A DNA stretch of 64,000 nt from assembly GCA_025451045.1 (NCBI GenBank), contig JANWLD010000001.1:343468-407467 (forward strand). Direction: 5' to 3'. Below are positions 10,843 through 55,901 of the stretch, piece by piece. Made by a program: the position numbers and the translations under genes. Numbering within the stretch: position 1 is the first letter of the stretch; every line of letters starts with the position of its first letter. This stretch comes from Candidatus Saccharimonadales bacterium. GTDB taxonomy: Bacteria > Patescibacteriota > Saccharimonadia > Saccharimonadales > 2-12-FULL-41-12. The notes under the pieces are model-generated. The model made no database searches, had not been told where the DNA came from, and was given only the letters and a program-made list of their open reading frames with translations.

Positions 10843-11112
10843 TTAACCGCTAGACTTGGAGCCTAATTTTTCTCGGATAGTACTAGGGACAGTAGTCAAA
10901 TCTTCAACTGCACCCATGAACCCTTCGGTAGCTCTTTCGCCAACATCCATAGCCTTTAGGCCAAAATCACTTGCAGCTTCAACTACGGGACCATCACTGC
11001 CGAACCCGCGGACTTCATCGTTAGCTTCCCGGGCAGCTTTTACTCGTGCCAAGTTAGCCGCTTTATCGGCTTCAGAGGTTGCAAATGGGTTTGGTTCGAT
11101 TTCTCGTGCCAT
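10843..11112 (-). CDS. hypothetical small protein (89 aa)
   Basis: Two mutually antisense ORFs here; the minus one is preferred because of TATTAT(11124-11119)-N6-ATG(11112) geometry and a more protein-like composition. Confidence 0.45.
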   Translation of the reverse strand: MAREIEPNPFATSEADKAANLARVKAAREANDEVRGFGSDGPVVEAASDFGLKAMDVGERATEGFMGAVEDLTTVPSTIREKLGSKSSG

Positions 11113-11118
11113 GACCGT

Positions 11119-11124
11119 ATAATA
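11119..11124 (-). promoter_or_regulatory. -10 box (TATTAT) placed N6 upstream of ATG 11112: leaderless-type promoter
   Basis: minus-strand read: TATTAT acggtc ATG. Confidence 0.45.
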
Positions 11125-11275
11125 GCACTTATGCTAAATTTTGTCAATATTATTATATCGTACCTCTGTATTAGTGGTTGAAAAAAGTATTGATTTGTGC
11201 TAAATTACCCTATAACGATTAATTAATTTACTTCCTGTTTGCGGCTTTTGCCGTTAGTAGCGAAAGGAGAAAAGA

Positions 11276-11431
11276 GTGGGAAAACCCAAAAAAAGAACCA
11301 CCCATCGCCGTACTGGCAACCGCCGGAGCCATCTGGTACTGAAGCTAGCACGTAAGGTTAACTCGAGAAGCCCGGTCAAAGCCTTTACTACCAGGCGTGA
11401 ATCTGGCAAAAAACTTGCATCAAGTAAATAA
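11276..11431 (+). CDS. rpmF: 50S ribosomal protein L32
   Basis: 51 codons, below the ORF-track cutoff; GTG start 6 nt after AAAGGAG; translation 'GKPKKRTTHRRTGNRRSHLVLK...' matches the L32 N-terminal basic motif. Confidence 0.75.
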   Translation: MGKPKKRTTHRRTGNRRSHLVLKLARKVNSRSPVKAFTTRRESGKKLASSK

Positions 11432-11492
11432 TTATTCGCGAATCAACTCCAGTAATGCGTTATAATAATCGTCAGGAGTAAAGTTTAACAAT

Positions 11493-11981
11493 ATGAGTGC
11501 CAATCGCCATTTAGGCCGGATTATCGCCCTCCAAACTCTTTACGAAGCAGCGTTTCGTCTCGAGTGTAAGGATGATAAGGTCGATTTGGACGCCATATTG
11601 AAGCGCAACATCGGCCGTTATAAAGCGGCTTTGGATGACAAGGAGTTCATTCTCAGGCTGGTCAAAGGGGTCCAAAAGGACTCGGCCAAACTGGATAAGA
11701 TACTTCAGCCAATCGCACCCGAGTGGCCGCTTAACCAGATAGCGAAGATTGATCTCTCTATTCTTCGTATCGGCGCCTATGAGCTGATCAACCACAAAGA
11801 TGTACCAGCTAAAGTGGTAATCAATGAGGCGGTCGAGCTAGCCAAATCATTTGGCGGCGATAACTCATCAAAATTTATCAACGGCGTACTTGGCACTTTG
11901 CTCAAACAATCAACAGATAAACCTAAGCCGGTAGCCAAAAAACCGGCAAAGAAACCTGCTAAATCGAAAGGTAAAGCTTAA
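11493..11981 (+). CDS. nusB: transcription antitermination factor NusB with K/P-rich tail
   Basis: 162 aa; '[10 protein letters not shown]', '[16 protein letters not shown]' NusB core; AGGAG RBS upstream; C-terminal '[20 protein letters not shown]'. Confidence 0.9.
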
Positions 11982-11995
11982 TTTATACAAATCAG

Positions 11996-12520
11996 ATGAA
12001 GAAACCTATAAAGAAACCCCACATCAAGCGGCCGAAGCCGATACAAGGGATAAAGAAATTCATTCCTAGGCGCAAACCTGCGATAAATGAAGTAGTTCGA
12101 GAACCAACCAGTGGCGGTATGGTTTTTCGCCGCAATAAAAAAAATGAGATAGAAATTCTGCTAATCCAAGATGCCAAGGACCGCTGGACGATACCTAAAG
12201 GCCATATTGAAGAAGGCGAATCGCCAAAAGAAACAGCCGAGCGGGAAATCCGCGAGGAAACCGGCCTTCAAGAGATGAAAGTGCTTAATTGGCTTGGCAA
12301 AATTAATTTCCGATACCGCCGCGCCACTAGCTTGGTTTTGATGACCACCGAGATTTTCTTGGTACAAGCCAAAGGCGACACCAGCAAACTTAAGCCTGAA
12401 GACTGGATGAACGGCATCGCGTGGTTTAAGGCCAACGAGGCGCTCGACAAAATTGAATACGAGGATATCGGCAAGATTATCCTTTTGGGATTAAAGAAAA
12501 TACGACATGCCGGACTCTAA
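11996..12520 (+). CDS. NUDIX hydrolase
   Basis: 174 aa; Nudix box 'GHIEEGESPKETAEREIREETGL'; basic N-terminal extension. Confidence 0.85.
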   Translation: MKKPIKKPHIKRPKPIQGIKKFIPRRKPAINEVVREPTSGGMVFRRNKKNEIEILLIQDAKDRWTIPKGHIEEGESPKETAEREIREETGLQEMKVLNWLGKINFRYRRATSLVLMTTEIFLVQAKGDTSKLKPEDWMNGIAWFKANEALDKIEYEDIGKIILLGLKKIRHAGL

Positions 12521-13936: not shown

Positions 13937-14011
13937 GCCTTTACCAGTTTGGCGAGGCCGGATTGTTTTGTTATACTAGCGAAAGCCAGATATTAACAAG
14001 GAGGAAAACCT

Positions 14012-14491: not shown

Positions 14492-14507
14492 AACATCCAA
14501 ATCATAG

Positions 14508-14648: not shown

Positions 14649-14745
14649 AGAAAGAGAAAATTTTCAAAAAATAGATGGCCGTCCAAAAATTGAAAATTAA
14701 AAAATGAGAAATCGAAGCCGTTACATTGTGAGATAATAGATGTGC

Positions 14746-15396
14746 ATGAAGATTCAGGTCATAAGTATTTTCCCGGAGATGTTTCCTAGCGTTTTGGAAA
14801 CCAGTATGCTTTTCAAGGCCAAAGACAAGGGCATAGTAGAATTTGATTACATAAACCTTCGTGATTTTGGGCTCGGACCTAGAAAATCAGTTGATGATAT
14901 CGTTTACGGCGGCGGGGACGGTATGTTACTGAAGCCTGAACCATTAATCGCATCCATTGAATATGCGAAAACCGAAGTTCCGAAATCTAAAATCATTCTG
15001 ATGACGCCCCGGGGTAAAAGGTTCAACCAAGCTACCGCCAAACAGTTTGCTGATGACAAACAGAATTTGATATTAGTTTGTGCCCGGTATGAGGGTTACG
15101 ACGAGCGGGTAGTTGAATTCGTCGACGAGCAGATATCAATCGGTGATTATGTACTGACCGGCGGGGAATTGCCGGCCATGGTAGTGATTGACAGCGTTGT
15201 AAGGCTATTGCCGGGGGTACTAGGCGGGGAAACGAGCGCGGAAATAGAAAGCTTTTCCGACGGAGAAACTCTGGAGTATCCTCAATATACCCGACCCGAA
15301 GATTTTCGTGGCAAAAAGGTTCCCAAGGTTCTTCTAAGCGGCAACCATGCCGAAATTGCCAAGTGGAGAAGGCAAAACTCTAAAAAAGCCGACTAG
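14746..15396 (+). CDS. trmD: tRNA (guanine37-N1)-methyltransferase
   Basis: 'MKIQVISIFPEMF' TrmD N-terminus; 'DDIVYGGGDGMLLKPEP'; 'ICARYEGYDER'; TGaGATAAT extended -10 at 14729-14737, 8 nt before this ATG. Confidence 0.9.
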   Translation: MKIQVISIFPEMFPSVLETSMLFKAKDKGIVEFDYINLRDFGLGPRKSVDDIVYGGGDGMLLKPEPLIASIEYAKTEVPKSKIILMTPRGKRFNQATAKQFADDKQNLILVCARYEGYDERVVEFVDEQISIGDYVLTGGELPAMVVIDSVVRLLPGVLGGETSAEIESFSDGETLEYPQYTRPEDFRGKKVPKVLLSGNHAEIAKWRRQNSKKAD

Positions 15397-16376
15397 ACTC
15401 GTCGGGTTAGATGGTCCGATTCGTCAATAATCTCGTGGCCGATAATTTCTTCTATCAAATCTTCAATAGTTATTATACCGACTATTTCGTCGCCTTTTTC
15501 TACCGGCATCAAATGGGTGCGGGCACTAATGAAATGTCTGAACATCGTATCTAGCGCAGTGCGGCTACCGACTGTTTTGGTCGGATGCAGTTGCAGTTCG
15601 GATACCTTGTAGCTTTTTTCATCGAAGTCTATGTCAACCAAATCTTTCATCCTAAGTATTCCGTAACAATGGCTCAAGCCTTTATTAAAAACCGGAATCC
15701 GGCTCCAGTTAGCGGCCTTTATCTCGTCGATTTTTATGGCGTCAATAACGCTATCGCGGGTCAGCCAATAAACACGCTGGACAGGAGTCATTATCTCGGC
15801 CACTTGTTTTTCGCTAAGCTGCAAAGCGCCCTTTATAATTTCGACTTCGTCATCGTCAAGGTCGCTTTCCGATTCGCCAAGATGGTCGCTTATAATAAGT
15901 CCCAATTCGCGGCGCGAATGTAGTCTTTGTCCCGTTTGCTCGCCGACGGCTCGGTCTAAGGCTATCTGCAGCGGTTTGGATAGCGGGTAAGTCAGGATAA
16001 TCATCAGTCGTAGCAGCGGCGAAAAGTAGGCGCAAAGCGTTAATGCGTGTTTAGTAAACAAAGCTTGCGGCAACAGTTCACCGAAAATTACCAACAGAAA
16101 AGTACTGATAAGCGCGGCGATTACTCCATTGAGCTTGGTGTGCAAGACTAACGGTATAATTGAAGCCATTGCGGCATTGACTAGCAGGATACTGGCCAGG
16201 CTCAGATGAGCATTTTTGCGAAGCGGCAATACTTTTTTAGCGTAATGGTTGCCTAGCTGGGCTTTGCGTTTTAAATCGTTCGGATTGAGGGAAATCAGGG
16301 CAATATTAAGGCCGGAACATACAGCCGCTAACGTAATCAGTAAAATAACGTAAAACAGAGTCGGGTCAATTGTCAT
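15393..16376 (-). CDS. CNNM/DUF21 + CBS-pair membrane protein (CorC/TlyC-like)
   Basis: 327 aa; N-terminal 4-TM DUF21 region, then tandem CBS ('VAEIMTPVQRV', 'IVGIITIEDLIEEIIG'); convergent 4-nt overlap with trmD. Confidence 0.8.
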   Translation of the reverse strand: MTIDPTLFYVILLITLAAVCSGLNIALISLNPNDLKRKAQLGNHYAKKVLPLRKNAHLSLASILLVNAAMASIIPLVLHTKLNGVIAALISTFLLVIFGELLPQALFTKHALTLCAYFSPLLRLMIILTYPLSKPLQIALDRAVGEQTGQRLHSRRELGLIISDHLGESESDLDDDEVEIIKGALQLSEKQVAEIMTPVQRVYWLTRDSVIDAIKIDEIKAANWSRIPVFNKGLSHCYGILRMKDLVDIDFDEKSYKVSELQLHPTKTVGSRTALDTMFRHFISARTHLMPVEKGDEIVGIITIEDLIEEIIGHEIIDESDHLTRRV

Positions 16377-16428
16377 CTAATGATAATTTTACACTTAAGC
16401 TTAGTTCTAATCAAAGTAGACACCCGGA

Positions 16429-16457
16429 TTGACTGGTAGTTTGTGATAAACTGTAAT
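16429..16457 (+). promoter_or_regulatory. promoter giving a leaderless pyrD-like mRNA
   Basis: TTGACT (16429-16434), 17-nt spacer, TGTAAT (16452-16457), N6, ATG 16464. Confidence 0.6.
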
Positions 16458-16463
16458 CTGAAT

Positions 16464-17570
16464 ATGGACAGAGACCAAGCGAAGTTATTTGACGACCAAC
16501 TTGGCCTGTATGACCCCTCGAAAACTTATCTGGAAAATTGGGACGAAGGTCCGTTTCCTGCTAAAGACTTCAAACTGTATGAAGATAAGGGCGAACCGGA
16601 ACTTACCTTTCTGGGCTTGCCGGTTTATTCGCCTTTCGGCATACCGGCCGGTCCGCTGTTAAACAGCAATCATATAAAATTCGCTTTTGACGGAGGCTTT
16701 GATGTAATCTGCTATAAAACCCAGCGCAGCGTAAAATTTTTGGCAAACGACTTTCCGAATGTCCTTTATTTGGATATTGAGGGTGATTTGACGATTGAGC
16801 GGGCAAAACAGCCGCTTGTGGGCCAGCCGACTACAACTAAACCGCTTAAAAACGTCTCAATCACCAATTCTTTCGGCAACCCAAGCTTAGGTCCGGATTT
16901 TTGGGTTGATGATTTGAAAAAAGCCCTAACCTATGAGAAAAAAGGCCAATTGCTGATAATGAGCGTGGTGGGCACAATCCAAGAAGGCTTTAGCCAAGAT
17001 GATTATTACGATGATTTTGCTAAAGCAGCCAAATTAGCAGCTTCTACCAGCGTGAAAGCAATTGAAATTAATCTTTCTTGTCCGAACGTCGCTTCAGAAG
17101 GCATTCTCTGTTATACCAAGGAAGCGGTAGTGGCAGTCTGTCAAAAAGTCAAAGAAGCTATCGGTGATACGCCGCTAATTACTAAATTCGGTTATTTCTC
17201 AAAAGCCCAAGAGCAATTACTGGAAGACACCCTCAAAGACATAGAGCCGCTTATATCGGCGATTTCGGCCATCAATACATTGCCGGCACCCGTGGTCGAT
17301 AGGAATGGTAAACAGGCTTTACCGGGCGAGGGAAGGCTGTCCAGTGGAATCTGCGGCGCAAGTATAAAGTGGGCCGGCCTTGACATGGTCGGACGATTAA
17401 ACAAACTCAAAGCTAAAAATAACTGGAATTATGAAATTATCGGTGTTGGCGGCGTGATGGGAGTCAATGATTTCCATAGTTACCGAGAAGCTGGTGCAGA
17501 TGTCGTGCAATCAGCTACCGCTGCCATGTGGAACACCGACTTAGCCGCGCAAATAAAAGCTAACTTATAA
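16464..17570 (+). CDS. pyrD: class-1 dihydroorotate dehydrogenase / dihydropyrimidine dehydrogenase-like flavoenzyme
   Basis: Active-site Cys loop 'IEINLSCPNV'; 'IIGVGGV' near the C-terminus; start trimmed to ATG 16464 by promoter geometry (track start 16443 is GTG inside the spacer). Confidence 0.7.
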   Translation: MDRDQAKLFDDQLGLYDPSKTYLENWDEGPFPAKDFKLYEDKGEPELTFLGLPVYSPFGIPAGPLLNSNHIKFAFDGGFDVICYKTQRSVKFLANDFPNVLYLDIEGDLTIERAKQPLVGQPTTTKPLKNVSITNSFGNPSLGPDFWVDDLKKALTYEKKGQLLIMSVVGTIQEGFSQDDYYDDFAKAAKLAASTSVKAIEINLSCPNVASEGILCYTKEAVVAVCQKVKEAIGDTPLITKFGYFSKAQEQLLEDTLKDIEPLISAISAINTLPAPVVDRNGKQALPGEGRLSSGICGASIKWAGLDMVGRLNKLKAKNNWNYEIIGVGGVMGVNDFHSYREAGADVVQSATAAMWNTDLAAQIKANL

Positions 17571-22247: not shown

Positions 22248-23027
22248 TTATAACTCTTCTATCAGTTTTTTCAGATATCTACTCGATTTTGGTTTTACAT
22301 CGTGCATTTCAGGCACGTAATCAAGCTTAAGGCGCGGGTTGATTTGGGCAAGTTTCTTGGCCTTAACCTTTGATACGAAGAAATCAAACCGTCCGTATAT
22401 GATATGGACTGGTTTTGATATTATTTCCAGCTGTGACAGCGTTTCCTGCGCCAGAATGGTGTTGTTAAGCGAATGTTCAATTGGCAGCCAGCTTTCTTCG
22501 TCGGTCTTGAATCCGCCCAGTTTATTGCTAAATTTATTCGACACTTTAGCGTATGTCGAAAGCGTCGGCGGCTTGCCTGCCAGGTATTTATAAAATTTTT
22601 TATGTAGCGAGCGCTTTTCGTCAAAATCCAAAAGGGGCGGCTTATATAGGACGGCGGCCCGAACTTTGTCCGGCCATTTACAAGCTATATATGTCGTGAT
22701 TATGCAGCCCATGGAATGGCCGATGAAGATAAACTGCTCGCTTTTTGCGGACTCCTTGCTTAGGCTATGCATTATAGCTTTGGCGTGTTCTTTGGTTGAG
22801 TATTTGGCGTAACCGGGCTTTGGTGATACGCCAAAACCCAGTAAATCATAACTTCTGACTCGGTATTTTTCACTTTCAAAAAGTTTTACCAAAGGAGTCC
22901 AAATTTTAGAACTGGAAGCCAAGCCGTGGATTAAGACGACATTTATTGGGCCATTGCCTATATCTACCACTTTTTCCAGGCGATAAGGCCTTTTCAAATA
23001 TCTATGCCAAACAGTATCAAGAACCAT
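22248..23027 (-). CDS. alpha/beta-fold hydrolase
   Basis: 259 aa; nucleophile elbow 'GHSMG'; '[10 protein letters not shown]' oxyanion region. Confidence 0.8.
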
Positions 23028-23033
23028 ATATTT

Positions 23034-23039
23034 ATTATA
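23034..23039 (-). promoter_or_regulatory. -10 box (TATAAT) N6 upstream of ATG 23027: leaderless-type promoter
   Basis: minus-strand read: TATAAT aaatat ATG. Confidence 0.5.
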
Positions 23040-31728: not shown

Positions 31729-31983
31729 CTAATGAGGAAGAATAAAATATAGGGAAATACCCCCTATAATAGTTCCAATAACTGTTATTAGGACTTTCTG
31801 AACAGATGAAAACAAATTCCACTTTTGTTTTAATTTGCTAATAATAGTTATATCTTCTAATTGAAGATTTTCTACATTAGTACTTTCAATACCGATATCA
31901 TATCCCTCTATTCGGCCATTTTTTATAGAAATACCATCGCTGTTTTTGATTACCACCCCCTTAGTAGGATTCTTTTTAACCAT
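31729..31983 (-). CDS. small protein: beta-helix-repeat-like N-terminus + C-terminal TM
   Basis: 84 aa; 'GISIKNGRIEGYDIGIESTNVENLQLEDITI' looks like parallel-beta-helix repeats; C-terminal hydrophobic helix; TATAAT-N6-ATG promoter. Confidence 0.5.
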   Translation of the reverse strand: MVKKNPTKGVVIKNSDGISIKNGRIEGYDIGIESTNVENLQLEDITIISKLKQKWNLFSSVQKVLITVIGTIIGGISLYFILPH

Positions 31984-31989
31984 ATTACT

Positions 31990-31995
31990 ATTATA
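31990..31995 (-). promoter_or_regulatory. -10 box (TATAAT) N6 upstream of ATG 31983: leaderless-type promoter
   Basis: minus-strand read: TATAAT agtaat ATG. Confidence 0.5.
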
Positions 31996-33710: not shown

Positions 33711-33760
33711 AAGGGAAAGGGTCGTTTACACTGGCGTAGTTTTTGTTAAACTTAAGGTAA

Positions 33761-34957
33761 ATGGCGGCTGTCTATAAAAAACACAAAGCACTTATAGTAG
33801 GCGGAGGATTCGGCGGAATAAAAACGGCGCTGGAACTGGCGAAGGACCGCGGGTTTGAAATAACACTCATCAGTGATGAACCGGATTTTCGCTACTATCC
33901 ATCGCTATACCATACCGCTACTGGCGGGAGCAGCGCGGTTTCGGACATACCGCTCAGTGAAATATTCGCGGACGTGCCTGCGGTAGAGATAGTCCAAGCC
34001 ACAATAAAATCGATAGATAAGAAAGAAAAATCGGTCGTGACGACTGCCGGACAGAAATATGAATACGATGTCATCGTATTAGCGCTAGGCATGGTAACGA
34101 ACTTTTTCGGTATTCCGGGTTTGGATAAGTTCGCTTATGGCATCAAATCGGTCGAGGACGCCGAAAAACTTAAAAAACATTTGCACAAACACATAGTTAA
34201 AAACAAGCATCCTGACCTGAACTACGTTGTAGTCGGCGGCGGCCCGACTGGCGTGGAACTGGCCGGAGTACTGGGCGACTACGTCGATTTAATCTGCAAA
34301 CGACACGGCATAGAAAAAAGGAGTGTCCATGTTGATTTAGTAGAGGCCGCTGACCGTCTATTGCCGCGAAGTCCTAAAAGAATCTCTAAAAAAGTTTATA
34401 AGCAGTTAAGGCGCAAAGGGGTAAAGATTTATCTAAACTCAGCCGTAAAATCCCAAAATCAGGAAGAACTGCTAGTGAACGACAAGCCGGTTCGCAGCCA
34501 TACGGTCATCTGGACAGCCGGCATGGCCAATAATCCTTTTTTTACCGAGCAGGGGTTCCAGTTGGCACCTAATCATAAAGTACGGGTTGACCAGTTCCTG
34601 CAAGCCGAACCGGGGATCTACGTTATCGGCGACAACGCCGATACGGCGTACAGCGGTATGGCCCAGACGGCTCTTTATGACGGTGGATACATAGCCAAAA
34701 ACCTGATACGCCTAGCCGACAATGAACCGCCCCTGCCATATGTTGCTAAAAAGCCGGTTTATGTCATTCCGGCCGGGCCGCACTGGGCTGCGGTAGAGTG
34801 GGGCAGACTGCGTTTTTATGGCCGCTTGGGCTGGGCTATCCGCCGGGCAGCCGACTTTGTAGCATACCGCGATTATGAACCTTGGTTTAGGGCTACTAAA
34901 CGATGGGTTGCCGAATATAAAGAAGAAGAACTCTGCCCGCACTGCGATAAAGATTAG
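33761..34957 (+). CDS. ndh: type II NADH dehydrogenase (NDH-2)
   Basis: 398 aa; two dinucleotide folds 'ALIVGGGFGG' and 'YVVVGGGPTGVELAG'; 'IGDNAD'. Confidence 0.85.
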   Translation: MAAVYKKHKALIVGGGFGGIKTALELAKDRGFEITLISDEPDFRYYPSLYHTATGGSSAVSDIPLSEIFADVPAVEIVQATIKSIDKKEKSVVTTAGQKYEYDVIVLALGMVTNFFGIPGLDKFAYGIKSVEDAEKLKKHLHKHIVKNKHPDLNYVVVGGGPTGVELAGVLGDYVDLICKRHGIEKRSVHVDLVEAADRLLPRSPKRISKKVYKQLRRKGVKIYLNSAVKSQNQEELLVNDKPVRSHTVIWTAGMANNPFFTEQGFQLAPNHKVRVDQFLQAEPGIYVIGDNADTAYSGMAQTALYDGGYIAKNLIRLADNEPPLPYVAKKPVYVIPAGPHWAAVEWGRLRFYGRLGWAIRRAADFVAYRDYEPWFRATKRWVAEYKEEELCPHCDKD

Positions 34958-37069: not shown

Positions 37070-37089
37070 TGTACTATTGCAATAGTACA
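37070..37089. promoter_or_regulatory. TrpR-operator-like perfect 20-bp palindrome
   Basis: TGTACTATTGCAATAGTACA has the same outer 7-bp arms and 6-bp centre spacing as the E. coli trp operator TGTACTAGTTAACTAGTACA; overlaps the -35 hexamer. Confidence 0.7.
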
Positions 37090-37105
37090 CAAATACAGGT
37101 ATAAT
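37077..37105 (+). promoter_or_regulatory. promoter of the trpR-trp operon (leaderless geometry)
   Basis: TTGCAA (37077-37082), 17-nt spacer, TATAAT (37100-37105), N6, ATG 37112. Confidence 0.65.
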
Positions 37106-37111
37106 GACGTG

Positions 37112-37378
37112 ATGAGTAAAAAATACGACGACGAGCTTCTAGAGCTTTTTTGTCAGACTGTTGACAAATTTACAATGTCTGAAATTTTATCAAATATGCT
37201 GACACCACAAGAGAGAGAAGAGCTGGCCACTCGCCTGCAAATATTTAAAAAACTGATTAAAGGCGAGAACCAACGCAGGATTGCTAAAGACTTGGGCGTT
37301 AGTATTGCCACTATTACCCGCGGCAGCCGCGAACTTCAATACGGCAAACCGGGCATTCGAAAGTTATACAAGAAATGA
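37112..37378 (+). CDS. trpR: Trp repressor
   Basis: 88 aa; '[47 protein letters not shown]' is colinear with E. coli TrpR '[48 protein letters not shown]'; stop overlaps the trpE ATG (ATGA). Confidence 0.85.
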   Translation: [88 protein letters not shown]

Positions 37379-42913: not shown

Positions 42914-42922
42914 TGTTATAAT
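42914..42922 (+). promoter_or_regulatory. extended -10 (TGtTATAAT) N6 upstream of ATG 42929: leaderless-type promoter
   Basis: TGtTATAAT gatttc ATG. Confidence 0.55.
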
Positions 42923-42928
42923 GATTTC

Positions 42929-43216
42929 ATGCAAAAAGAATTTGACCGCCATCTTTATAGAGTTTTATTAGCCGCAACCCTTTTGACTTTGAGCATAGGC
43001 ACTGTTGTATATCATGAAGTAGAACACTTTAACTGGGTGGATGCTTATTATTTCAGCGTTATTACTCTGGCCACTGTCGGTTATGGCGATTTTACGCCGC
43101 ATACCACTTTTGGCAAAATTTTTACCACTTTCTATATTTTTATCGGCGTAGGCATTATTACGGCTTTCATTACTTACTCTATCCGCCGCCGAGCCAGCCG
43201 GATGAAGAAAAAGTAA
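42929..43216 (+). CDS. minimal two-TM potassium channel (95 aa)
   Basis: TM1, pore helix, selectivity filter 'TVGYGD', TM2; no cytoplasmic regulatory domain, only a short basic tail. Confidence 0.8.
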   Translation: MQKEFDRHLYRVLLAATLLTLSIGTVVYHEVEHFNWVDAYYFSVITLATVGYGDFTPHTTFGKIFTTFYIFIGVGIITAFITYSIRRRASRMKKK

Positions 43217-44108: not shown

Positions 44109-44876
44109 TCACACCGCGCATCTGACCAGTTCGTCATGACAAACTTTATTTGACAGGATGGCTCCCTTAAACGGTTTGGTGTAATCAAGTTCGCGTCCAT
44201 CATAACCGGTAACTTTTCCGCCGGCTTCTTCGACGATGACATGGACGGCGGCGATATCGTGCGGATTTACTAATTTTTCAAGATAACCTACGGCTCTTCC
44301 CCGGGCAACTAAGCATGATTTATAAACAGCGCCGTAAATAGAATCAAGCCTGGCCCCTGTTTCCAGCAAATTATTTATCAGTTTGGTATCAGCTATTATC
44401 TTCTTGGGATTGCTTGGCATCAACACGTAATGACCACGCAGTTTATTGCCTGAAACAGCTAAGGGCTTACCGTTGCAAAAACTGCCCTGGCCTTTAGTAG
44501 CCCAATAAAGCTTGTCCAAAAAGGGGTCATAAGCTACACCTATTATTGGCACCCCATCAACTACCAAAGCAAGTGAAAATGTCGCGCTGGGTATACCGAT
44601 TACAAAAGCCCTGGTTCCGTCTATCGGGTCGCATATCCATTTTCTGCCGCTACCATAGTCGCTGGTACTTTCTTCCTCGCCGATTATACCGTCATCAAAG
44701 TGTTTTGATAGTTCTTTGATTACCATGGAATTAATCTTTTTATCGGCGATAGTTACTTCTGTGGCGCCGGCTATATCTTTATGTTCCAAGCCTTGGTCAC
44801 CGTCAAAATATTCCAGCATAATCTTACCGGCTTTGAGGGCAATGTCTTTGGCTATTTTCAATTCAGTTTCGTACAT
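44109..44876 (-). CDS. suhB: inositol monophosphatase family protein
   Basis: 255 aa; 'WICDPIDGTRAF', 'IGEE', 'DIAAVHVIVEEAGG'. Confidence 0.85.
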   Translation of the reverse strand: MYETELKIAKDIALKAGKIMLEYFDGDQGLEHKDIAGATEVTIADKKINSMVIKELSKHFDDGIIGEEESTSDYGSGRKWICDPIDGTRAFVIGIPSATFSLALVVDGVPIIGVAYDPFLDKLYWATKGQGSFCNGKPLAVSGNKLRGHYVLMPSNPKKIIADTKLINNLLETGARLDSIYGAVYKSCLVARGRAVGYLEKLVNPHDIAAVHVIVEEAGGKVTGYDGRELDYTKPFKGAILSNKVCHDELVRCAV

Positions 44877-44900
44877 ATACGATAATTATACATAGCGGCA

Positions 44901-44941
44901 AAAATAAAAACCCCTGTATTGCAGTTCGGACAGGGGTTTTT
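44901..44941 (-). terminator. rho-independent terminator of hdeD (bidirectional shape)
   Basis: cccctgt/acagggg stem (44911-44936) flanked by an A-run and a T-run. Confidence 0.7.
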
Positions 44942-45501: not shown

Positions 45502-45646
45502 AGAACCCTCCTTAATTTTCTCCCACGCCTTAAGCCAATAATCCTATCCTTGCGAATAAATGTCAATAATGACTTGTGGATAACTAATAAGGCTTAAGCT
45601 TATGCTAAGCTTCGTGCTATACTTCGCAATAATATCAATATTTATA

Positions 45647-45652
45647 TAGATT
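45647..45652 (+). promoter_or_regulatory. -10-like box (TAGATT) N6 upstream of ATG 45659
   Basis: TAGATT acaggc ATG. Confidence 0.35.
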
Positions 45653-45658
45653 ACAGGC

Positions 45659-47530
45659 ATGGAGCCAGAACAAAAACCACCGGAGACAGCAAACAATAAT
45701 CCTACTCCGAATATAATAAAACCAAATATTCCTAGTACTGAAAATGCAGGGCCTTCCTTCCAGCAAGTGCCTCCACAGCCGAATTTGCCTCCTCAACCTG
45801 CTCCAATTCCGACAGATAAACAGCCCCCTGTCAACCAGTCACCCTCAATGCCTCTTGGTACCAGCCAGTTATTTCAGCCGGACTCCAAATTACCAGAATT
45901 TGGCGGCGCGATAATTGACAATCAGCCGCCAAAAGGAATCAAAAGGATTTTTAAAAACAAAAAAATAACTTTTCTACTTCTTGCCCAGTTTCTCGCGGTT
46001 ATCTTCGTGATCGGCGGGATTTTTGGCTATTATCTGCCCAACCGCCCCGAAAATGTTTGGAAAACGGGTTTAAACAGATCTGGCGAAGCATTGGACAAAT
46101 TGTTAATCCAAGCTACTGAGAAGAATCAGCTGGAAGCATTCAAAAAGTCTGAGATCAACGCCTCTTTGGCTATAAAAGCCCAAGGCGCCGATTTTAAAGG
46201 AAGCTTTACCGGTAGATTTGATCAGTCCAAGGCTGACGGCAGTCTAAACTTCGAAGTCAATCAAGGAGGTAATAACGCTAAGCTGGCCATGAAATATATA
46301 AGCATCCTAGCAGGCGGTGCTACCTATCCTGATTTTTACGCGCAGTTTAGCGGTATAAAAGAACTGGGGGGTGATGCTTTCGTTCCGGGAATAAGCAAAT
46401 ATGACGGCAAATGGATAGCTGTTAATTCGGATTATTTCAAGTCGTTGGGCTTGCCGGTTACCACTCCTGGCCAGGTAAATAAAAGCCAGATAAACGCCGG
46501 CGATGTTTCAGAACTTATAAGAGCGGTTTCTTCCGTTTCGAAAGATTACCTATTGACCTCGAATATGGACCGGGCGGTGATAAAACAGGTCAAATTCGTG
46601 GGCAAGGAAAAAACAGACGGTATATCGGCTTACCATTATATCGCCGGTATAGACAAGGCGCATGCCAAGGACTACTGCAAGGCGCTTTATGAAAAAATAT
46701 CCACGACTACTATATATAAGAATTTTAATGGGAATGATCAGGACAAAATTAATAACGCAAAAAACGCGGACACAAAAGCCTGCCAAGATGACGACACGAA
46801 CATTAACACTAATTTTGACCTCTGGATAGACGCCAAGTACAAGCTGATTCATAAGATAAGAATCCCTGACGAATCAAATAAGCAGGCTTACACCGACATC
46901 GGCCAGACGTACAAGGGGGGAGATGATGTATCACTCTTTGTGGCCTATCACAACGGCAAGGAACCCATGGACGCTAAGCTAACATTCTCGACAAATATAA
47001 AAAGCGTGGACAGCAAGGGCGAATTTAGCATAAAAGGAGGCAAAGGCAGTGAAGCTTATGATGGCAAGGCTACCTTTGAGATAAAACCGCTAAGCGAGGA
47101 TTTGAATATCCAAAAACCGGCCAATTCCATACCTCTGCAGGATATATTGAAGAAATATGGTTATGATCCCACTTCATATTTATTAAATAACGGCCTTAGC
47201 GGCTCGCCGGATCAGGCAAAAGACGCGGACAGAAAAAGCGACATTAACGCTATTGATTCGCAAGTCGAGGTCTATTTTGCCCAGAATGGTTACTACCCGA
47301 CACTAAGTGAGATTAATAACCCTTCTTGGCGTTCCGCCAATCTGCGCGGGTTCACCAACGATTCTTTGGCTCCTCCGGGAAGTTCGTCAACTAGCCTGTC
47401 TTCAACCGCTTCGTCCAGCCAATACGGCTATTCGACCTCCGGCTGTAGCGTTGAGGGTTGCCTGGGGTTTGTTTTGACGGCATTACTCAGCAATGGCCAG
47501 AAGTATATTAAGACCGGCTCGAATAATTAG
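45659..47530 (+). CDS. large membrane-anchored surface protein with P/Q-rich N-terminus and C-terminal pilin-like module
   Basis: 623 aa; proline-rich first 90 aa; one TM ('ITFLLLAQFLAVIFVIGGIFGYY'); near the C-terminus 'AKDADRKSDINAIDSQVEVYFAQNGYYPT' resembles the post-TM segment of GspG/type IV pilins. Confidence 0.6.
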   Translation: MEPEQKPPETANNNPTPNIIKPNIPSTENAGPSFQQVPPQPNLPPQPAPIPTDKQPPVNQSPSMPLGTSQLFQPDSKLPEFGGAIIDNQPPKGIKRIFKNKKITFLLLAQFLAVIFVIGGIFGYYLPNRPENVWKTGLNRSGEALDKLLIQATEKNQLEAFKKSEINASLAIKAQGADFKGSFTGRFDQSKADGSLNFEVNQGGNNAKLAMKYISILAGGATYPDFYAQFSGIKELGGDAFVPGISKYDGKWIAVNSDYFKSLGLPVTTPGQVNKSQINAGDVSELIRAVSSVSKDYLLTSNMDRAVIKQVKFVGKEKTDGISAYHYIAGIDKAHAKDYCKALYEKISTTTIYKNFNGNDQDKINNAKNADTKACQDDDTNINTNFDLWIDAKYKLIHKIRIPDESNKQAYTDIGQTYKGGDDVSLFVAYHNGKEPMDAKLTFSTNIKSVDSKGEFSIKGGKGSEAYDGKATFEIKPLSEDLNIQKPANSIPLQDILKKYGYDPTSYLLNNGLSGSPDQAKDADRKSDINAIDSQVEVYFAQNGYYPTLSEINNPSWRSANLRGFTNDSLAPPGSSSTSLSSTASSSQYGYSTSGCSVEGCLGFVLTALLSNGQKYIKTGSNN

Positions 47531-49823: not shown

Positions 49824-49936
49824 ATCAGTAGTTTTTTCTCATAGCTGAGTATTATGTACTAGGCTAGAACTTCATTTCTTGCATGCTAAGAGTAAGAGAA
49901 CGGGTAACGGCTTATTTAATAGATAATCCTATTTGT

Positions 49937-49942
49937 TAGAAT
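49937..49942 (+). promoter_or_regulatory. -10 box (TAGAAT) N6 upstream of ATG 49949: leaderless-type promoter
   Basis: TAGAAT aaaacc ATG. Confidence 0.45.
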
Positions 49943-49948
49943 AAAACC

Positions 49949-50896
49949 ATGTCTACATATAAAACAAAAGTAGAGTCAGCCGCTATTGACTCGTTTATGC
50001 GCGAGCACTTTGGTTCTGACGGCATTGACGTCAAAATGATAGCTGATGGTGAAGTATCACAGGCTGGCATTGTTGAAACCGCAAATGGCACGAAAGTCGT
50101 GCGTTTTAGTAAGCATACTGATGAAGGCTACCAAAAAGATAAGTTTGCATACGAACATTTTAGGAGTCTACTTGTTCCCATTCCACAAATTGAAGAAATT
50201 GATACGTTGCCAGACGGAACGTACTATGCCGTATCTGAATTAGCACCGGGTACAACCCTTGATAAGCTAACCGCAGACGAGTTAAAAGCCACACTGCCCT
50301 CCATGATTCAGACTATGGAGGCTATACATCAAACAACTCCTGTTGGCAGTGGTTTTGGCTCAATACAGCTTGATGGAAATGGTAATACAAGTTCTTGGCA
50401 CGAAGCTTTAGATCGCAGCCAAGCTAGTAATGACGATGACAAACTAGATTCAATTCAAATGTTTGAGAGAGATGTATATGAACGATCTAGAACAAAAATA
50501 AAAGACTACTACAAGTATTGCCCAAATGATATAAGGCAGCTTATTCATAGAGATTTTGGCTTTAATAATACCTTAGCTAAAAATGGAAAAATTACAGGTG
50601 TTATAGACTGGGATGATGCTGCATATGGCGATCCACTTTATGACGTTGCATGGCAAGGTTTCTGGTCCCCAGCTTTTAGCTGGTCAAATGAAGTAGATAT
50701 TGTCGGCACCATAAAGCAGCACTACGTTGATACTGGTCAACTGCCAGAAAACTTTGACGAGCGTATTGACTGCTACAAGATGATTATTGGCGCTAACTGC
50801 CTGAGCTTTTTTGCCAAATCAGATCAGAGAGGCAGCTATGATTACGTTCGCGGTGAGCTTATGAAGATTGATGCAAAGATAGCTAATAAAAACTAA
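49949..50896 (+). CDS. aminoglycoside phosphotransferase-family kinase, hygromycin-B-kinase (APH(4))-like
   Basis: 315 aa; catalytic loop 'LIHRDFGFNNTL', 'GVIDWDDAAYGDPLYD'; overall colinear with Hph as I recall it ('HLVHADFGSNNVL...AVIDWSEAMFGDSQYE'). Confidence 0.7.
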   Translation: MSTYKTKVESAAIDSFMREHFGSDGIDVKMIADGEVSQAGIVETANGTKVVRFSKHTDEGYQKDKFAYEHFRSLLVPIPQIEEIDTLPDGTYYAVSELAPGTTLDKLTADELKATLPSMIQTMEAIHQTTPVGSGFGSIQLDGNGNTSSWHEALDRSQASNDDDKLDSIQMFERDVYERSRTKIKDYYKYCPNDIRQLIHRDFGFNNTLAKNGKITGVIDWDDAAYGDPLYDVAWQGFWSPAFSWSNEVDIVGTIKQHYVDTGQLPENFDERIDCYKMIIGANCLSFFAKSDQRGSYDYVRGELMKIDAKIANKN

Positions 50897-53779: not shown

Positions 53780-53781
53780 AT

Positions 53782-55047
53782 CTAAACGATTTTTTCTTCG
53801 GCGGGATGGACTTTGTCAATTTTGTCGGATTTGGCATGTTCTTTACGGGCAAGCAGGATAAACGGCACGGAAAACGCGCTGATTACACCAGAAACTAGAT
53901 AGGATGTAGAGTAGCTGTAAACATCAGCAACTCTACCTAGTACCGGCTGGAAAACTACTCCGCCGCTGGAACCGATGACCGAATCAAATGATAAAACCGT
54001 TGCCCGTTGCTGGGAAGGGATTTCGCCGTTGAGGTACGTTTGGCGTACTGGTCCGGATGTTGCGAAGATCAGAGCCCAGATGACAATCAGGCCCAAGGCT
54101 ATAGCAAAAGAATGTATAAGTCCCAAAGCAATCAAAACAAACGCGCTGACTACGTAAACAGATGATAAGATAGTTGTCCGCTTGCCAAAAAGCGTGATGA
54201 CTTTCGGTACGACCAAACCGCCGATTATCTGCGCGCCGGCGATTATTGCCGCAACCAATCCGGCAATACTATATGCATCCGGATCGCCGTAAAGTTCCAG
54301 TAAAAACGGTTGCAGGGCATAAAACACGTAAAAACTGATACCGGTTAAAAACGGCGCGGAAAGCATTATCCAGCGTACCTTGCGGTTTTTTATACCATAA
54401 TGTATCGAAGCGTCGAGAATTTTCTTCATTTCTTTTACCGGCCGTTTGCTCTTTTGAGGCGTAAAACCAATGTCGCGCATGACCACAAAAGCCGTGACAA
54501 AACTTATTCCTAAAATTACCGCTCTTAGAATATAAGGTACGCCCAAATTGCTGGCTTGGGCTATGATACCGCCGGCGACTGAACCGCTTAGCATGGCTAT
54601 ACCGCCGACAATCTGCCCACGAGCAAAAACATGCTCCAAAGGCCCTTTGTATTTGGTCGCATGAAGCGCATCGACCAGCCAGGCCTCAACCGCACCGGAG
54701 AAGAAAGTAAAGCCCAGCCCCAGAACCATGGAAGAAATCGCCCAGCCCCAAAACGGCCCGGAAATTTCCCACATATATAGATATAGCAATGTTGAAAAAC
54801 CAAGCGTCAAACATCCAAGCAGGAATGAAGTCCGCCGGCCGCGGCTATCGGCAATCACACCCGTCGGAACTTCAAACAGTACTTGTCCAACGGTAAAGAA
54901 CGCATTAGCGGCGAACGCCTCGGTGTTGGATAGCCCCGCATCGAGTAAAAACAAGGTGTTGATACCCCATATCAGCGATGCCGCCAAGGTATTTAATAAG
55001 GTCAAAGTCAGGTATACGCGCTGGACACGCCGCGCCTCATGATTCAT
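53782..55047 (-). CDS. MFS transporter
   Basis: 12 TM; 'GVIADSRGRR' MFS loop motif; start trimmed to ATG 55047 by TACAAT-N6-ATG. Confidence 0.8.
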   Translation of the reverse strand: MNHEARRVQRVYLTLTLLNTLAASLIWGINTLFLLDAGLSNTEAFAANAFFTVGQVLFEVPTGVIADSRGRRTSFLLGCLTLGFSTLLYLYMWEISGPFWGWAISSMVLGLGFTFFSGAVEAWLVDALHATKYKGPLEHVFARGQIVGGIAMLSGSVAGGIIAQASNLGVPYILRAVILGISFVTAFVVMRDIGFTPQKSKRPVKEMKKILDASIHYGIKNRKVRWIMLSAPFLTGISFYVFYALQPFLLELYGDPDAYSIAGLVAAIIAGAQIIGGLVVPKVITLFGKRTTILSSVYVVSAFVLIALGLIHSFAIALGLIVIWALIFATSGPVRQTYLNGEIPSQQRATVLSFDSVIGSSGGVVFQPVLGRVADVYSYSTSYLVSGVISAFSVPFILLARKEHAKSDKIDKVHPAEEKIV

Positions 55048-55053
55048 AACCAA

Positions 55054-55059
55054 ATTGTA
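55054..55059 (-). promoter_or_regulatory. -10 box (TACAAT) N6 upstream of ATG 55047: leaderless-type promoter
   Basis: minus-strand read: TACAAT ttggtt ATG. Confidence 0.5.
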
Positions 55060-55085
55060 TCAGCAAAAACAGATTTTTGACTAAC

Positions 55086-55808
55086 TTATAAGACGCCTTT
55101 TTGACGCCATAATTTAGGGGCGTCACGAAGACGTATATCAGATTCTTCAAGGGCTCTTTGGGCGCTAAACAAACCTACTTCTTGTTGTATGGTTAATTTG
55201 CCCAGTTTACTGAATTTTACGTCGTACATCTTTTCATCAGCTTGGCGCATAAGTTCTGAAAAACTTTTAATTTCTTCGGATAACATTGCAAAACCGACAG
55301 AAAGGTCAAGGCCGTTTTCTCTGAAAGCACCATTGCCAGGTTTGTTTACATATTTGCTGTATCTTTTTTCAAATTCCTGAGCTGTCTTTTTTGTTTGCTC
55401 TTCATCTCCTTTGCAAAGGATAGCAAACTCATCACCACCTATACGCCCCGCTATCAGCGGTGTCTCGGATGAGGCCGTCAAATCAGCCAAAATTGATTTG
55501 GCTGTATCGATTACTTCATCGCCTACATGGTGTCCTAAGCTGTCATTTATATATTTAAGGCTGTCAACATCGCCGATTATAATCCCCAGCGGAGCGCCTC
55601 CTTCAATGGCCGCAGCGACTTTCTCCGCGGCAACCCTTCGAAAGGCCCCGCTTTTATATAAACCATAGTCATCAATATCGGCCTCGGCATTTGATTCTTG
55701 GTAACCCTCATTGAACCCCTTATTATAAAATCCATTAAATTCTAAGGCTTGCTCTTGAAGCGCAACCCTTTCAGGGGTAAATAACTCTGGATGCTTATAT
55801 GAAGCCAT
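55086..55808 (-). CDS. GGDEF-domain diguanylate cyclase without recognisable sensor domain
   Basis: 'RIGGDEFAILC' intact GGDEF; 'DSLKYINDSLGHHVGDEV'; about 70-aa N-terminal region of unknown type; start trimmed to ATG 55808. Confidence 0.8.
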   Translation of the reverse strand: MASYKHPELFTPERVALQEQALEFNGFYNKGFNEGYQESNAEADIDDYGLYKSGAFRRVAAEKVAAAIEGGAPLGIIIGDVDSLKYINDSLGHHVGDEVIDTAKSILADLTASSETPLIAGRIGGDEFAILCKGDEEQTKKTAQEFEKRYSKYVNKPGNGAFRENGLDLSVGFAMLSEEIKSFSELMRQADEKMYDVKFSKLGKLTIQQEVGLFSAQRALEESDIRLRDAPKLWRQKGVL

Positions 55809-55811
55809 CTC

Positions 55812-55820
55812 TATATTATA
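55812..55820 (-). promoter_or_regulatory. extended -10 (TGcTATAAT) N6 upstream of ATG 55808: leaderless-type promoter
   Basis: minus-strand read: TGcTATAAT atagag ATG. The TATAAT occupies 55815-55820 and the TG lies just outside (55822-55823). The track start TTG 55826 is upstream of the -10. Confidence 0.55.
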
Positions 55821-55901
55821 GCACAAAATAATAAAAATGTCTAGCCCCCTTATGCTTAAAACCAGAACTCAAAATGAGTTATGATAGATTAAAGATATTT
55901 T

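What the first reader, a model, noticed from the sequence alone, without database searches (positions are those of the whole stretch)
11110..55823. Recurrent '-10 hexamer - N6 - ATG' geometry: at least ten genes look leaderless
Reading upstream of first-in-operon genes, I repeatedly find a TANNNT-type -10 box exactly 6 nt before the ATG.

| Strand | -10 box (coordinates) | N6 | ATG | Gene |
|---|---|---|---|---|
| - | TATTAT (11124-11119) | acggtc | 11112 | 89-aa ORF |
| + | TGTAAT (16452-16457), with TTGACT -35 at a 17-nt spacing | ctgaat | 16464 | pyrD-like |
| - | TATAAT (23039-23034) | aaatat | 23027 | alpha/beta hydrolase |
| - | TATAAT (31995-31990) | agtaat | 31983 | 84-aa ORF |
| + | TATAAT (37100-37105) | gacgtg | 37112 | trpR |
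| + | TGtTATAAT (42914-42922) | gatttc | 42929 | K+ channel |
| + | TAGATT (45647-45652) | acaggc | 45659 | 623-aa surface protein |
| + | TAGAAT (49937-49942) | aaaacc | 49949 | APH-like kinase |
| - | TACAAT (55059-55054) | ttggtt | 55047 | MFS transporter |
| - | TGcTATAAT (55823-55815) | atagag | 55808 | GGDEF protein |

Near-variants with N7-N8 spacing:
- trmD: GATAAT 14732-14737, ATG 14746.
- suhB: TATAAT 44890-44885, ATG 44876.
- corA: TACAAT 57107-57112, ATG 57121.
- rmuC: TATACT 58343-58348, ATG 58356.

None of these genes has a GGAG-type SD. Internal or other genes do have strong ones (rpmF, nusB, KH, sodA, hdeD and both DUF7144-like paralogs).

The pattern also corrects starts. In the pyrD-like, trpR, MFS and GGDEF genes, the ORF-track start is an upstream alternative codon lying inside or upstream of the promoter.
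Basis: seen in the sequence. Interest (0 to 1): 0.6.

Follow-up and report, generated by a model that had tools for sequence, protein, structure and literature searches.

The report
Leaderless genes in a Saccharibacteria genome
In this Saccharibacteria (candidate phyla radiation, CPR) genome fragment about a third of transcription units have their promoter -10 box only 6-8 bases before the ATG, the known sequence signature of leaderless mRNAs, seen here in a lineage where I found no published report of it.

Summary
All 14 sites are at the stated coordinates.

**Enrichment**
- Among 47 first-in-operon-like genes, 14 carry a strong -10 hexamer 6-8 nt before the first ATG.
- Only 1 of 23 internal genes does. 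Dinucleotide shuffles give 1.9 ± 1.4, and 0 of 1000 shuffles reach 14.

**The hexamers behave as promoters**
- 44% carry an extended -10 TGn, against a 6% background (p ~1e-15).
- -35 matches at a 16-18 bp spacing are enriched.
- The hexamers avoid internal genes.
- They pair with ATG in 93% of cases.

**The pattern recurs in related genomes**
- The same peak appears in about 250 kb from other Saccharibacteria, including a locus of 58% GC.
- It is kept at orthologues. The alpha/beta hydrolase has TATAAT-N6-ATG in three genomes with diverged flanks. trpR, trmD, CNNM and the small ORF beside leuS also keep a close box.

**Start codons**
- Orthologues support the pyrD-like and trpR starts.
- The trmD start differs from the public call, and an orthologue supports it.

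**Verdict**
This is the known "TA-led" or GeneMarkS-2 group C leaderless signature. I found no report of it for Saccharibacteria or CPR. No transcription start data exist, so transcription starting at the A of ATG is inferred. Three of the ten sites are weak: pyrD-like TGTAAT, the 623-aa gene's TAGATT, and the 84-aa ORF.

It is a new member of a known kind, of modest interest.

The parts
11110..11147 (-). TTGACA(11147-11142)-17-TGcTATTAT(-10 at 11124-11119)-N6-ATG(11112), 89-aa ORF
   Evidence: Perfect -35, 17-nt spacer and extended -10. The promoter is nearly identical in L017, where the spacer is N10 and the N-terminus MxRE is conserved.
16429..16466 (+). pyrD-like (DHO_dh). Alternative extended -10 TGaTAAACT (16444-16452) at N11
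   Evidence: TGTAAT lacks A at position 2. L019 has TATAAT-ctgaat-ATG at the homologous place, and L017 has TGgTAAAAT at N12. Homologue N-termini and the public call (368 aa) start at this ATG.
23025..23039 (-). TATAAT-N6-ATG(23027), alpha/beta hydrolase
   Evidence: TATAAT-N6-ATG is conserved in the window, L017 and L019, with diverged flanks and a conserved N-terminus MV(L/K)D. Pfam.
31981..31995 (-). TATAAT-N6-ATG(31983), 84-aa ORF
   Evidence: Sequence. No TGn and no -35. No family match and a borderline coding score. This is a weaker case.
37071..37114 (+). TrpR-operator-like palindrome GTACTATTGCAATAGTAC (37071-37088) over the -35, then TATAAT(37100-37105)-N6-ATG(37112); trpR heading the trp operon
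   Evidence: Palindrome, TATAAT and ATG are conserved in L003 (N7) and L002 (N10). The upstream GTG 37109 is GTT in both. Public call is 88 aa.
42914..42931 (+). TGtTATAAT-N6-ATG(42929), small K+ channel
   Evidence: Extended -10. Ranked second in the generic promoter scan. Pfam Ion_trans_2.
45615..45661 (+). 623-aa protein: TAGATT(45647-45652)-N6-ATG(45659), plus an upstream TGcTATACT (45615-45623) at N35
   Evidence: The box is weak, and a better extended -10 further upstream would give a leader of about 28 nt without an SD. Ambiguous.
49934..49951 (+). TGtTAGAAT-N6-ATG(49949), APH-family kinase
   Evidence: Extended -10. Pfam APH.
55045..55062 (-). TGaTACAAT-N6-ATG(55047), MFS transporter
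   Evidence: Extended -10. TTG 55053 abuts the box, so it cannot lie in a transcript from this promoter. Public call is 421 aa, the ATG version.
55806..55843 (-). TAGACA-17-TGcTATAAT-N6-ATG(55808), GGDEF protein
   Evidence: Best hit of the generic promoter scan, 11 of 12 plus TG. Public call is 240 aa, the ATG version.
14729..14748 (+). TGaGATAAT-N8-ATG(14746), trmD
   Evidence: TGTGAGATAAT is conserved in L017, where the start is GTG at N6, at the codon homologous to 14746. The public call uses 14740, which lies only 2 nt after the box.
44874..44941 (-). Terminator hairpin (44941-44906) and U-run, then TATAAT(44890-44885)-N8-ATG(44876), suhB
   Evidence: Hairpin -15.7 kcal/mol, z = -3.0. Orthologues carry TATAAT or GATAAT at N6-N12. 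Pfam profile position 3 aligns to residue 3.
57104..57123 (+). TGgTACAAT-N8-ATG(57121), corA
   Evidence: Extended -10. TTG 57112 overlaps the box. Public call is 308 aa, the ATG version.
58294..58358 (+). Terminator-like hairpin (58294-58317), then TATACT(58343-58348)-N7-ATG(58356), rmuC
16374..16391 (-).
   Evidence: TACAAT or TAAAAT at N8 in L017 and L019, with the N-terminus MTIDPT conserved.
33744..33763 (+).
   Evidence: L002 has TAAACT at N10.
60643..60660 (-).
   Evidence: Pfam profile position 2 aligns to residue 5.
55882..55904 (+). TGaTAGATT-N11-ATG(55902), metK; the N11 'mini-leader' class
   Evidence: The same geometry occurs at pheS (TGgTACAAT 61645-61653, ATG 61665) and at the DNA methylase (GTGACA-17-TATAAT 30226-30231, ATG 30243).

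Best explanation
The window comes from a Saccharibacteria (Saccharimonadales-type, CPR) genome that uses two ways of starting translation.

**Two classes of gene**
- Internal genes and part of the first genes have a GGAG-type Shine-Dalgarno 5-8 nt before the start. It follows a very short leader of about 20-30 nt.
- About 30-40% of transcription units instead have a sigma-70-type promoter, often of the extended -10 kind (TGnTAnnnT). Its -10 hexamer ends 6-8 nt before the ATG.

**Inferred mechanism**
- RNA polymerase normally starts about 7 nt after the -10 hexamer. Transcription would therefore begin at, or within 1-2 nt of, the A of ATG.
- That would produce leaderless mRNAs with no ribosome-binding site.
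- By analogy with Actinobacteria, Deinococcus and lambda cI, a ribosome would bind the 5'-terminal AUG directly.

**Minor class**
A smaller group (N9-N12: metK, pheS, the DNA methylase, possibly pyrD-like) would have leaders of only 3-5 nt.

**Shown and inferred**
- Shown: the geometry, its enrichment, its promoter-like context and its conservation.
- Inferred: the transcription start position and the mode of ribosome recruitment.
For: - All sites are verified.
- The start-independent count of TATAAT-Nk-ATG peaks at k=6.
- Strict boxes at N6-8 occur in 14 of 47 first-in-operon-like genes and 1 of 23 internal genes. No box gene carries an SD.
- None of 1000 dinucleotide shuffles reaches the observed counts in the window or in relatives.
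- Extended -10 TGn occurs in 24 of 54 boxes against 6% (p ~1e-15). A -35 match of at least 4 of 6 occurs in 17 of 54 against 12.6% (p = 2e-4).
- The TGnTAnnnT profile is concentrated at N6 (6), N7 (1) and N8 (2) in the window, and at 8, 5 and 2 in relatives.
- ATG is the start in 93% of box-associated candidate starts against 77% of SD-associated ones.
- The same peak is seen in other Saccharibacteria loci: 23 of 104 against 4 of 43 internal genes, and in more distant loci of GC 40-58%.
- Orthologue footprints exist for trpR, the alpha/beta hydrolase, trmD, CNNM, the small ORF, suhB and pyrD-like.
- Divergent pyrF and pyrD-like pairs lie only 23-35 nt apart, with back-to-back -10 boxes.
- A terminator lies directly before the suhB box.
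- Pfam profiles begin at residues 2-5 of several of these proteins.
- Across 49 species, the TSS is centred 7 bp downstream of the -10 element (PMC12641261).
- The same TANNNT signal, with its first T about 12 bp upstream, defines leaderless genes in other phyla (PMC3160421; PMC6028130).
Against: - No transcription-start or N-terminal data exist for this organism or for any relative examined.
- Exclusivity between SD and box is partly forced by geometry.
- Spacers of N9-N12 in the window and in orthologues imply that some transcripts have a few leader nucleotides rather than none.
- Relatives are not fully independent, because orthologous genes are counted in several loci.
Confidence: 0.8

Rival explanations
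1. The hexamer is a translation signal on leadered mRNAs made from promoters further upstream. It would be an A/U-rich, non-SD ribosome-binding or unstructured element, as in GeneMarkS-2 group B genomes.
For: The motif sits where an RBS would sit, and these genes have no SD. The 623-aa gene has a better promoter 35 nt upstream.
Against: - A translation signal should also occur before internal genes. It does not: 1 of 23 and 4 of 43.
- It should not carry TGn at -15/-14 or a -35 at 16-18 bp.
- Terminators and 23-35-nt divergent intergenic regions leave no room for upstream promoters.
- The trpR operator is placed for this promoter.
Confidence: 0.07
2. The promoters are real, but the ATG next to them is not the start codon. 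Translation would begin at a downstream codon, so the mRNAs would be leadered.
For: Starts are predicted, not measured. Two small ORFs have no homologue support.
Against: - Pfam profiles start at residues 2-5 of SuhB, EamA, DUF520 and the DNA methylase.
- Homologue N-termini of the pyrD-like protein begin at this ATG.
- N-terminal residues are conserved from the ATG in orthologues.
- The sharp N6 peak would have no cause.
Confidence: 0.05
3. Most of these transcripts are near-leaderless rather than leaderless. Transcription would start 1-5 nt before the ATG, and the exact N6 is only the mode of a short-leader distribution.
For: Spacers range from N6 to N12 in the window and shift between orthologues: trpR N6/N7/N10, suhB N6-N12, the small ORF N6/N10.
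Against: N6 is by far the commonest spacing in the window, and it places the A exactly 7 nt after the box. Functionally this differs little from the main explanation.
Confidence: 0.07
4. The matches arise by chance in AT-rich intergenic DNA.
For: GC is 45%. The generic two-hexamer scan is not enriched overall: 46 found against 38.4 ± 6.3 in shuffles. The loose TANNNT-Nk-ATG count shows no peak.
Against: None of 1000 shuffles reaches the observed counts. The effect replicates in independent genomes, including one of 58% GC, and at orthologues.
Confidence: 0.01

Closest known systems
'TA-led' leaderless genes of bacteria (Zheng et al. 2011, PMC3160421); GeneMarkS-2 group C genomes (Lomsadze et al. 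2018, PMC6028130)
   Same: - TANNNT Pribnow box whose first T lies about 12 bp before the start codon (spacer 6-8).
- Present only before first genes in operons.
- Coexists with SD-led genes.
- 20-40% of genes or operons affected.
- Orthologues switch between the two modes.
   Different: Those surveys found the trait mainly in Actinobacteria and Deinococcus-Thermus. Zheng et al. does not mention TM7, and I could not check the GeneMarkS-2 group tables. Here GC is 45%, the box is a full TAtaaT, and it very often has an extended -10 TGn.
Experimentally mapped leaderless transcriptomes: Mycobacterium tuberculosis (Cortes 2013), Deinococcus deserti (de Groot 2014), Streptomyces coelicolor (as cited in PMC6028130)
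   Same: The expected architecture is the same: the TSS falls on the A or G of the start codon, with the -10 box immediately upstream and no SD.
   Different: Those have dRNA-seq and proteomic proof. This case has sequence and comparative evidence only.
Phage lambda cI mRNA from PRM in E. coli (own knowledge)
   Same: A single-gene model of a 5'-AUG leaderless mRNA translated without an SD.
   Different: It is an isolated case in an SD-dominated genome. Here the arrangement is a genome-wide habit.
Archaeal leaderless genes (GeneMarkS-2 group D)
   Same: The promoter lies directly against the start codon and there is no SD.
   Different: Archaea use a TATA box about 22-26 nt upstream. Here it is a bacterial -10 at 6-8 nt.

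Membership tests
Bacterial leaderless (TA-led, group C type) genes | -10 (TANNNT) hexamer ending 6-8 nt before the start codon, positionally enriched | tested here: met
   N6 peak, with 0 of 1000 shuffles reaching the observed counts.
Bacterial leaderless (TA-led, group C type) genes | Signal confined to first genes of operons, while internal genes use an SD | tested here: met
   14 of 47 against 1 of 23 in the window, and 23 of 104 against 4 of 43 in relatives. 11 of 23 internal genes have an SD.
Bacterial leaderless (TA-led, group C type) genes | No Shine-Dalgarno before these starts | tested here: met
   0 of 20 and 0 of 34. This is partly forced, because box and SD would overlap.
Bacterial leaderless (TA-led, group C type) genes | The hexamer is a real promoter element (-35 and/or extended -10 context) | tested here: met
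   TGn in 44% against 6%. A -35 match of at least 4 of 6 in 31% against 12.6%.
Bacterial leaderless (TA-led, group C type) genes | Start codon at the 5' end is AUG (rarely GUG) | tested here: met
   54 ATG, 2 GTG and 2 TTG. One orthologue, trmD in L017, uses GTG.
Bacterial leaderless (TA-led, group C type) genes | Transcription start coincides with the start codon (5' UTR of 0 to about 5 nt) | not testable with these tools
   No TSS data.
Bacterial leaderless (TA-led, group C type) genes | Protein N-terminus at the proposed codon | tested here: inconclusive
   Homologue and Pfam alignments are consistent for SuhB, EamA, DUF520, the DNA methylase, the pyrD-like protein, TrpR and TrmD. There is no proteomics.
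TrpR-operator-controlled promoter (side observation) | Palindromic operator resembling GTACTAGTTAACTAGTAC that overlaps the promoter of a trp gene | tested here: inconclusive
   The 18-bp palindrome GTACTATTGCAATAGTAC at 37071-37088 is conserved in L002 and L003. The E. coli consensus is recalled from memory. Binding was not tested.

The most novel reading that the evidence does not exclude
Leaderless or near-leaderless initiation may be a lineage-wide habit of Saccharibacteria, and perhaps of other CPR bacteria. It would serve about a third of transcription units, including housekeeping genes (trmD, suhB, metK, pheS, pyr and trp genes), and orthologues would flip between SD-led and leaderless forms. 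That would make these ultra-small epibionts a third major bacterial lineage with a large leaderless transcriptome, beside Actinobacteria and Deinococcus-Thermus. It would also mean that many public MAG protein sets carry N-terminal extensions that are translated promoters.
Probability: 0.55. Interest if true: 0.45.

Novelty: new member of a known kind. Interest (0 to 1): 0.35.

Why it matters
**Gene starts.** It affects the correct start calls for roughly a third of first genes in Saccharibacteria MAGs. Several public homologues of the pyrD-like protein begin with translated promoter sequence. An example is MLEYNLNM, where Y-N is TATAAT.

**Genetic tools.** Expression constructs for cultivated Saccharibacteria (TM7x, Southlakia) can be built as promoter-ATG fusions without an RBS.

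**Biology.** It extends the known phylogenetic range of abundant leaderless initiation to a reduced-genome CPR lineage. That bears on whether leaderless initiation is ancestral or goes with streamlining. It does not reveal a new mechanism.

Tried and rejected
- **Source contig.** Exact look-ups of SuhB and of the 100% identical pyrD-like protein P0001 in the contig index found nothing. I could not extend the window along its 538-kb source contig.
- **Related loci.** The genome contigs and metagenome-contig scans with SuhB gave only 8 loci each. I added loci through pyrD-like homologues.
- **Literature.** Searches on leaderless, TSS or SD combined with Saccharibacteria, Patescibacteria, CPR or TM7 found no report of this trait. 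The TM7x transcriptome preprint does not mention TSS, UTR, promoter or operon. Supplements of the NAR 2025 and GeneMarkS-2 papers are not held.
- **Generic promoter scan.** The two-hexamer scan is not enriched over shuffles, and the loose TANNNT-Nk-ATG count over the whole window shows no peak. Both lack power and were not used as evidence.
- **RNA families.** Rfam finds only two tRNAs, so no riboswitch or leader RNA conflicts with the model.
- **ORF-boundary artefact.** I asked whether the peak arises because TAA inside TATAAT sets the ORF boundary. That could inflate N8, N11 and N14, but not N6 or N7, where the box is in frame as TAT-AAT or is out of phase.
- **Counting suhB orthologues repeatedly.** Only 1 of the 34 box genes in relatives is suhB.

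Full report
**1. What the window is**

The window has 45% GC. Relatives of its SuhB protein, at 55-70% identity (the best full-length match 69%), are all in Candidatus Saccharibacteria, Saccharimonadales or Patescibacteria MAGs or in unlabelled environmental contigs. An identical pyrD-like protein is on record from an NCBI contig of 538 kb. The gene content fits a soil- or water-type Saccharibacterium: a cyo oxidase operon, a trp operon, and pyr genes in relatives.

**2. The observation**

Pfam confirms the gene names.

**3. Is it more than chance?**

- *Without any gene model.* TATAAT-Nk-ATG on both strands peaks at k=6, with 6 cases against 0-2 at every other k. TANAAT gives 9 against 1-5. 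The loose TANNNT count is flat, because coding sequence swamps it.
- *Gene set.* I called 71 genes with a codon-usage score. As start I took the first ATG within 12 codons of the longest-ORF start, a rule blind to the box.
- *Position.* In first-in-operon-like genes (divergent neighbour or a gap of at least 25 nt; n=47), strict -10 hexamers (5 of 6 matches to TATAAT with T1, A2 and T6) number 8, 3 and 3 at spacers 6, 7 and 8. Further upstream the mean is about 0.9 per position. Only 1 of 23 internal genes has such a box.
- *Shuffles.* Dinucleotide shuffles of each gene's own 45-nt upstream give 1.94 ± 1.35, with a maximum of 8 in 1000, against 14 observed.
- *SD.* SD 4-mers peak at spacers 5-8 and are found in 11 of 23 internal genes.

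The genome therefore mixes SD-led genes with genes whose start lies directly behind a -10 box.

**4. Are the hexamers promoters?**

- Pooling the window with relatives L001-L016, 24 of 54 boxes at N6-8 are preceded by TGn (extended -10). The background for all TANNNT hexamers is 6% (p ~1e-15).
- 17 of 54 have at least 4 of 6 matches to TTGACA at 16-18 bp, against 12.6% (p = 2e-4).
- The 9-mer TGnTAnnnT before first genes falls at N6 (6), N7 (1), N8 (2) and N11 (3) in the window. After that it appears only at N17-N35, mostly followed by an SD, which marks the leadered promoters. Relatives give 8, 5 and 2 at N6-8.
- Box-associated candidate starts are ATG in 54 of 58 cases. SD-associated starts are ATG in 55 of 71.
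- A strong terminator hairpin with a U-run ends about 10 nt before the suhB TATAAT. A terminator-like hairpin precedes the rmuC box.
- In E. coli and across 49 species, the TSS is centred 7 bp after the -10 element (PMC12641261). N6 puts the A of ATG at exactly that position.

**5. Comparative evidence**

| Gene | Window | Relatives |
|---|---|---|
| trpR | TATAAT-N6-ATG | N7 in L003, N10 in L002 |
| alpha/beta hydrolase | TATAAT-N6-ATG | The same in L017 and L019, with unrelated flanks |
| 89-aa ORF | TTGACA-17-TGcTATTAT, N6 | Promoter almost identical in L017, but N10 |
| trmD | TGaGATAAT-N8-ATG | TGaGATAAT-N6-GTG in L017, at the homologous codon |
| CNNM transporter | -10 box at N9 | N8 in L017 and L019 |
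| suhB | TATAAT-N8-ATG | TATAAT or GATAAT at N6-N12 |
| pyrD-like | TGTAAT-ctgaat-ATG, plus TGaTAAACT at N11 | TATAAT-ctgaat-ATG in L019; TGgTAAAAT at N12 in L017; TACAAT-N6 in L020 (58% GC); TATAGT-N7 in L022; SD-led in L024 |

- At trpR, the 18-bp palindrome and the ATG are also conserved, and the window's upstream GTG is GTT in both relatives.
- In L020 and L022 the divergent pyrF gene starts only 23-35 nt away and has its own box at N7-N8. No upstream promoter can fit there.
- Pooled over relatives, strict boxes at N6-8 occur in 23 of 104 first genes against 4 of 43 internal genes. Shuffles give 3.7 ± 1.9.
- Four more distant loci show the same peak.
- Only one of the 34 box genes in relatives is suhB itself.

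**6. The "corrected starts"**

- For trmD the public call is 14740, which lies 2 nt after the box.
- Several public homologues of the pyrD-like protein are over-extended into the promoter. P0011 begins MLEYNLNM, which is ATG..TATAAT-CTGAAT-ATG.

**7.

- TGTAAT at the pyrD-like gene lacks the key A at position 2. TGaTAAACT at N11 is a better -10.
- The 623-aa gene has only TAGATT at N6 and a better TGcTATACT at N35.
- The 84-aa ORF has no homologue or family support, and its box has neither TGn nor a -35.
- The mutual exclusion of box and SD is partly geometric.
- An N11 group exists: metK, pheS, the DNA methylase and perhaps pyrD-like. Three of the four carry TGn. This implies 4-5-nt leaders rather than none. 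The group is not enriched in relatives.

**8. Relation to what is known**

- Zheng et al. 2011 describe the same signal: TANNNT with its first T about 12 bp before the start. They read it as the mark of leaderless genes, report 19% of genes in Actinobacteria and 39% in Deinococcus-Thermus, and describe orthologues switching mode (PMC3160421).
- GeneMarkS-2 calls such genomes group C, with the Pribnow box 6-8 nt from the start of 25-50% of operons (PMC6028130).
- This window fits every sequence-level criterion.
- I found no paper in the held library that reports the trait for Saccharibacteria or CPR. I could not see the GeneMarkS-2 group tables.

**9. Verdict**

- It is the known leaderless-gene signature in a lineage where it seems undescribed.
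- It is useful for annotation and for genetic tools, and modestly interesting for evolution. It is not a new mechanism.

Noticed in passing
window 37071-37088 (also L002 and L003 upstream of trpR): An 18-bp perfect palindrome, GTACTATTGCAATAGTAC, overlaps the -35 region of the trpR promoter. It is conserved as GT(A/T)CTATTG(C/T)AATAGTAC in two relatives. It resembles the E. coli TrpR operator half-site GTACTA (from memory). trpR heads the trpE-trpG-fused trp operon, which suggests an autoregulated leaderless trp operon.
   Followed up: partly
proteins P0004, P0005, P0011, P0016, P0023, P0024, P0041; L019 3217-3240: Public gene calls for pyrD-like homologues carry short N-terminal extensions, such as MLEYNLNM and MIKYVTMN. 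At least for P0011/L019, the extension is the translated promoter (TAT-AAT = Y-N). This points to systematic start mis-calls in Saccharibacteria MAG proteomes.
   Followed up: partly
L020 9966-10000; L022 9978-10000; L024 9944-10000: Divergent pyrF and pyrD-like genes are separated by only 23-35 nt, with back-to-back -10 boxes. In L024 the pyrD-like orthologue instead has a promoter, an AAGGAG SD and a leader of about 20 nt. The same gene thus switches between leaderless and SD-led forms.
   Followed up: partly
window 55882-55904, 61645-61667, 30203-30245, 16444-16466: A second spacing class places the -10 box 11 nt before the ATG: metK, pheS, the C-5 DNA methylase and possibly pyrD-like. Three of the four have an extended -10 TGn. 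The class is not seen as a peak in relatives, so it may be chance or a set of 4-5-nt mini-leaders.
   Followed up: partly
window 11113-11150 and L017 1732-1775: The promoter of the small ORF next to leuS (TTGACAAnATTTAGCATAAGTGCTATTATA) is nearly identical between genomes whose proteins are about 79% identical. That is more conserved than the ORF itself. The 380-nt gap up to nusB (11113-11492) has no called gene or Rfam hit.
   Followed up: no
window 4300-4311, 14000-14011, 22219-22260, 28835-28875, 49330-49365: Leadered promoters in this genome sit very close to their genes. TGnTATAAT-type boxes lie 24-35 nt before SD-led starts, so 5' UTRs would be only about 20-30 nt. No riboswitch or leader RNA was found by Rfam in 64 kb.
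   Followed up: partly
window 24207-28834 (- strand): A cytochrome bo-type quinol oxidase operon (COX1, COX3, COX4_pro and UbiA in the syntenic L017) is present, together with sodA and an NDH-2-like gene. The genome therefore encodes components of aerobic respiration, which is notable for a CPR bacterium.
   Followed up: no
window 14492-14739: A 248-nt gap with no called gene lies between the KH-domain gene and trmD, where rimM sits in many bacteria. In L017 the gap is about 167 nt.
   Followed up: no
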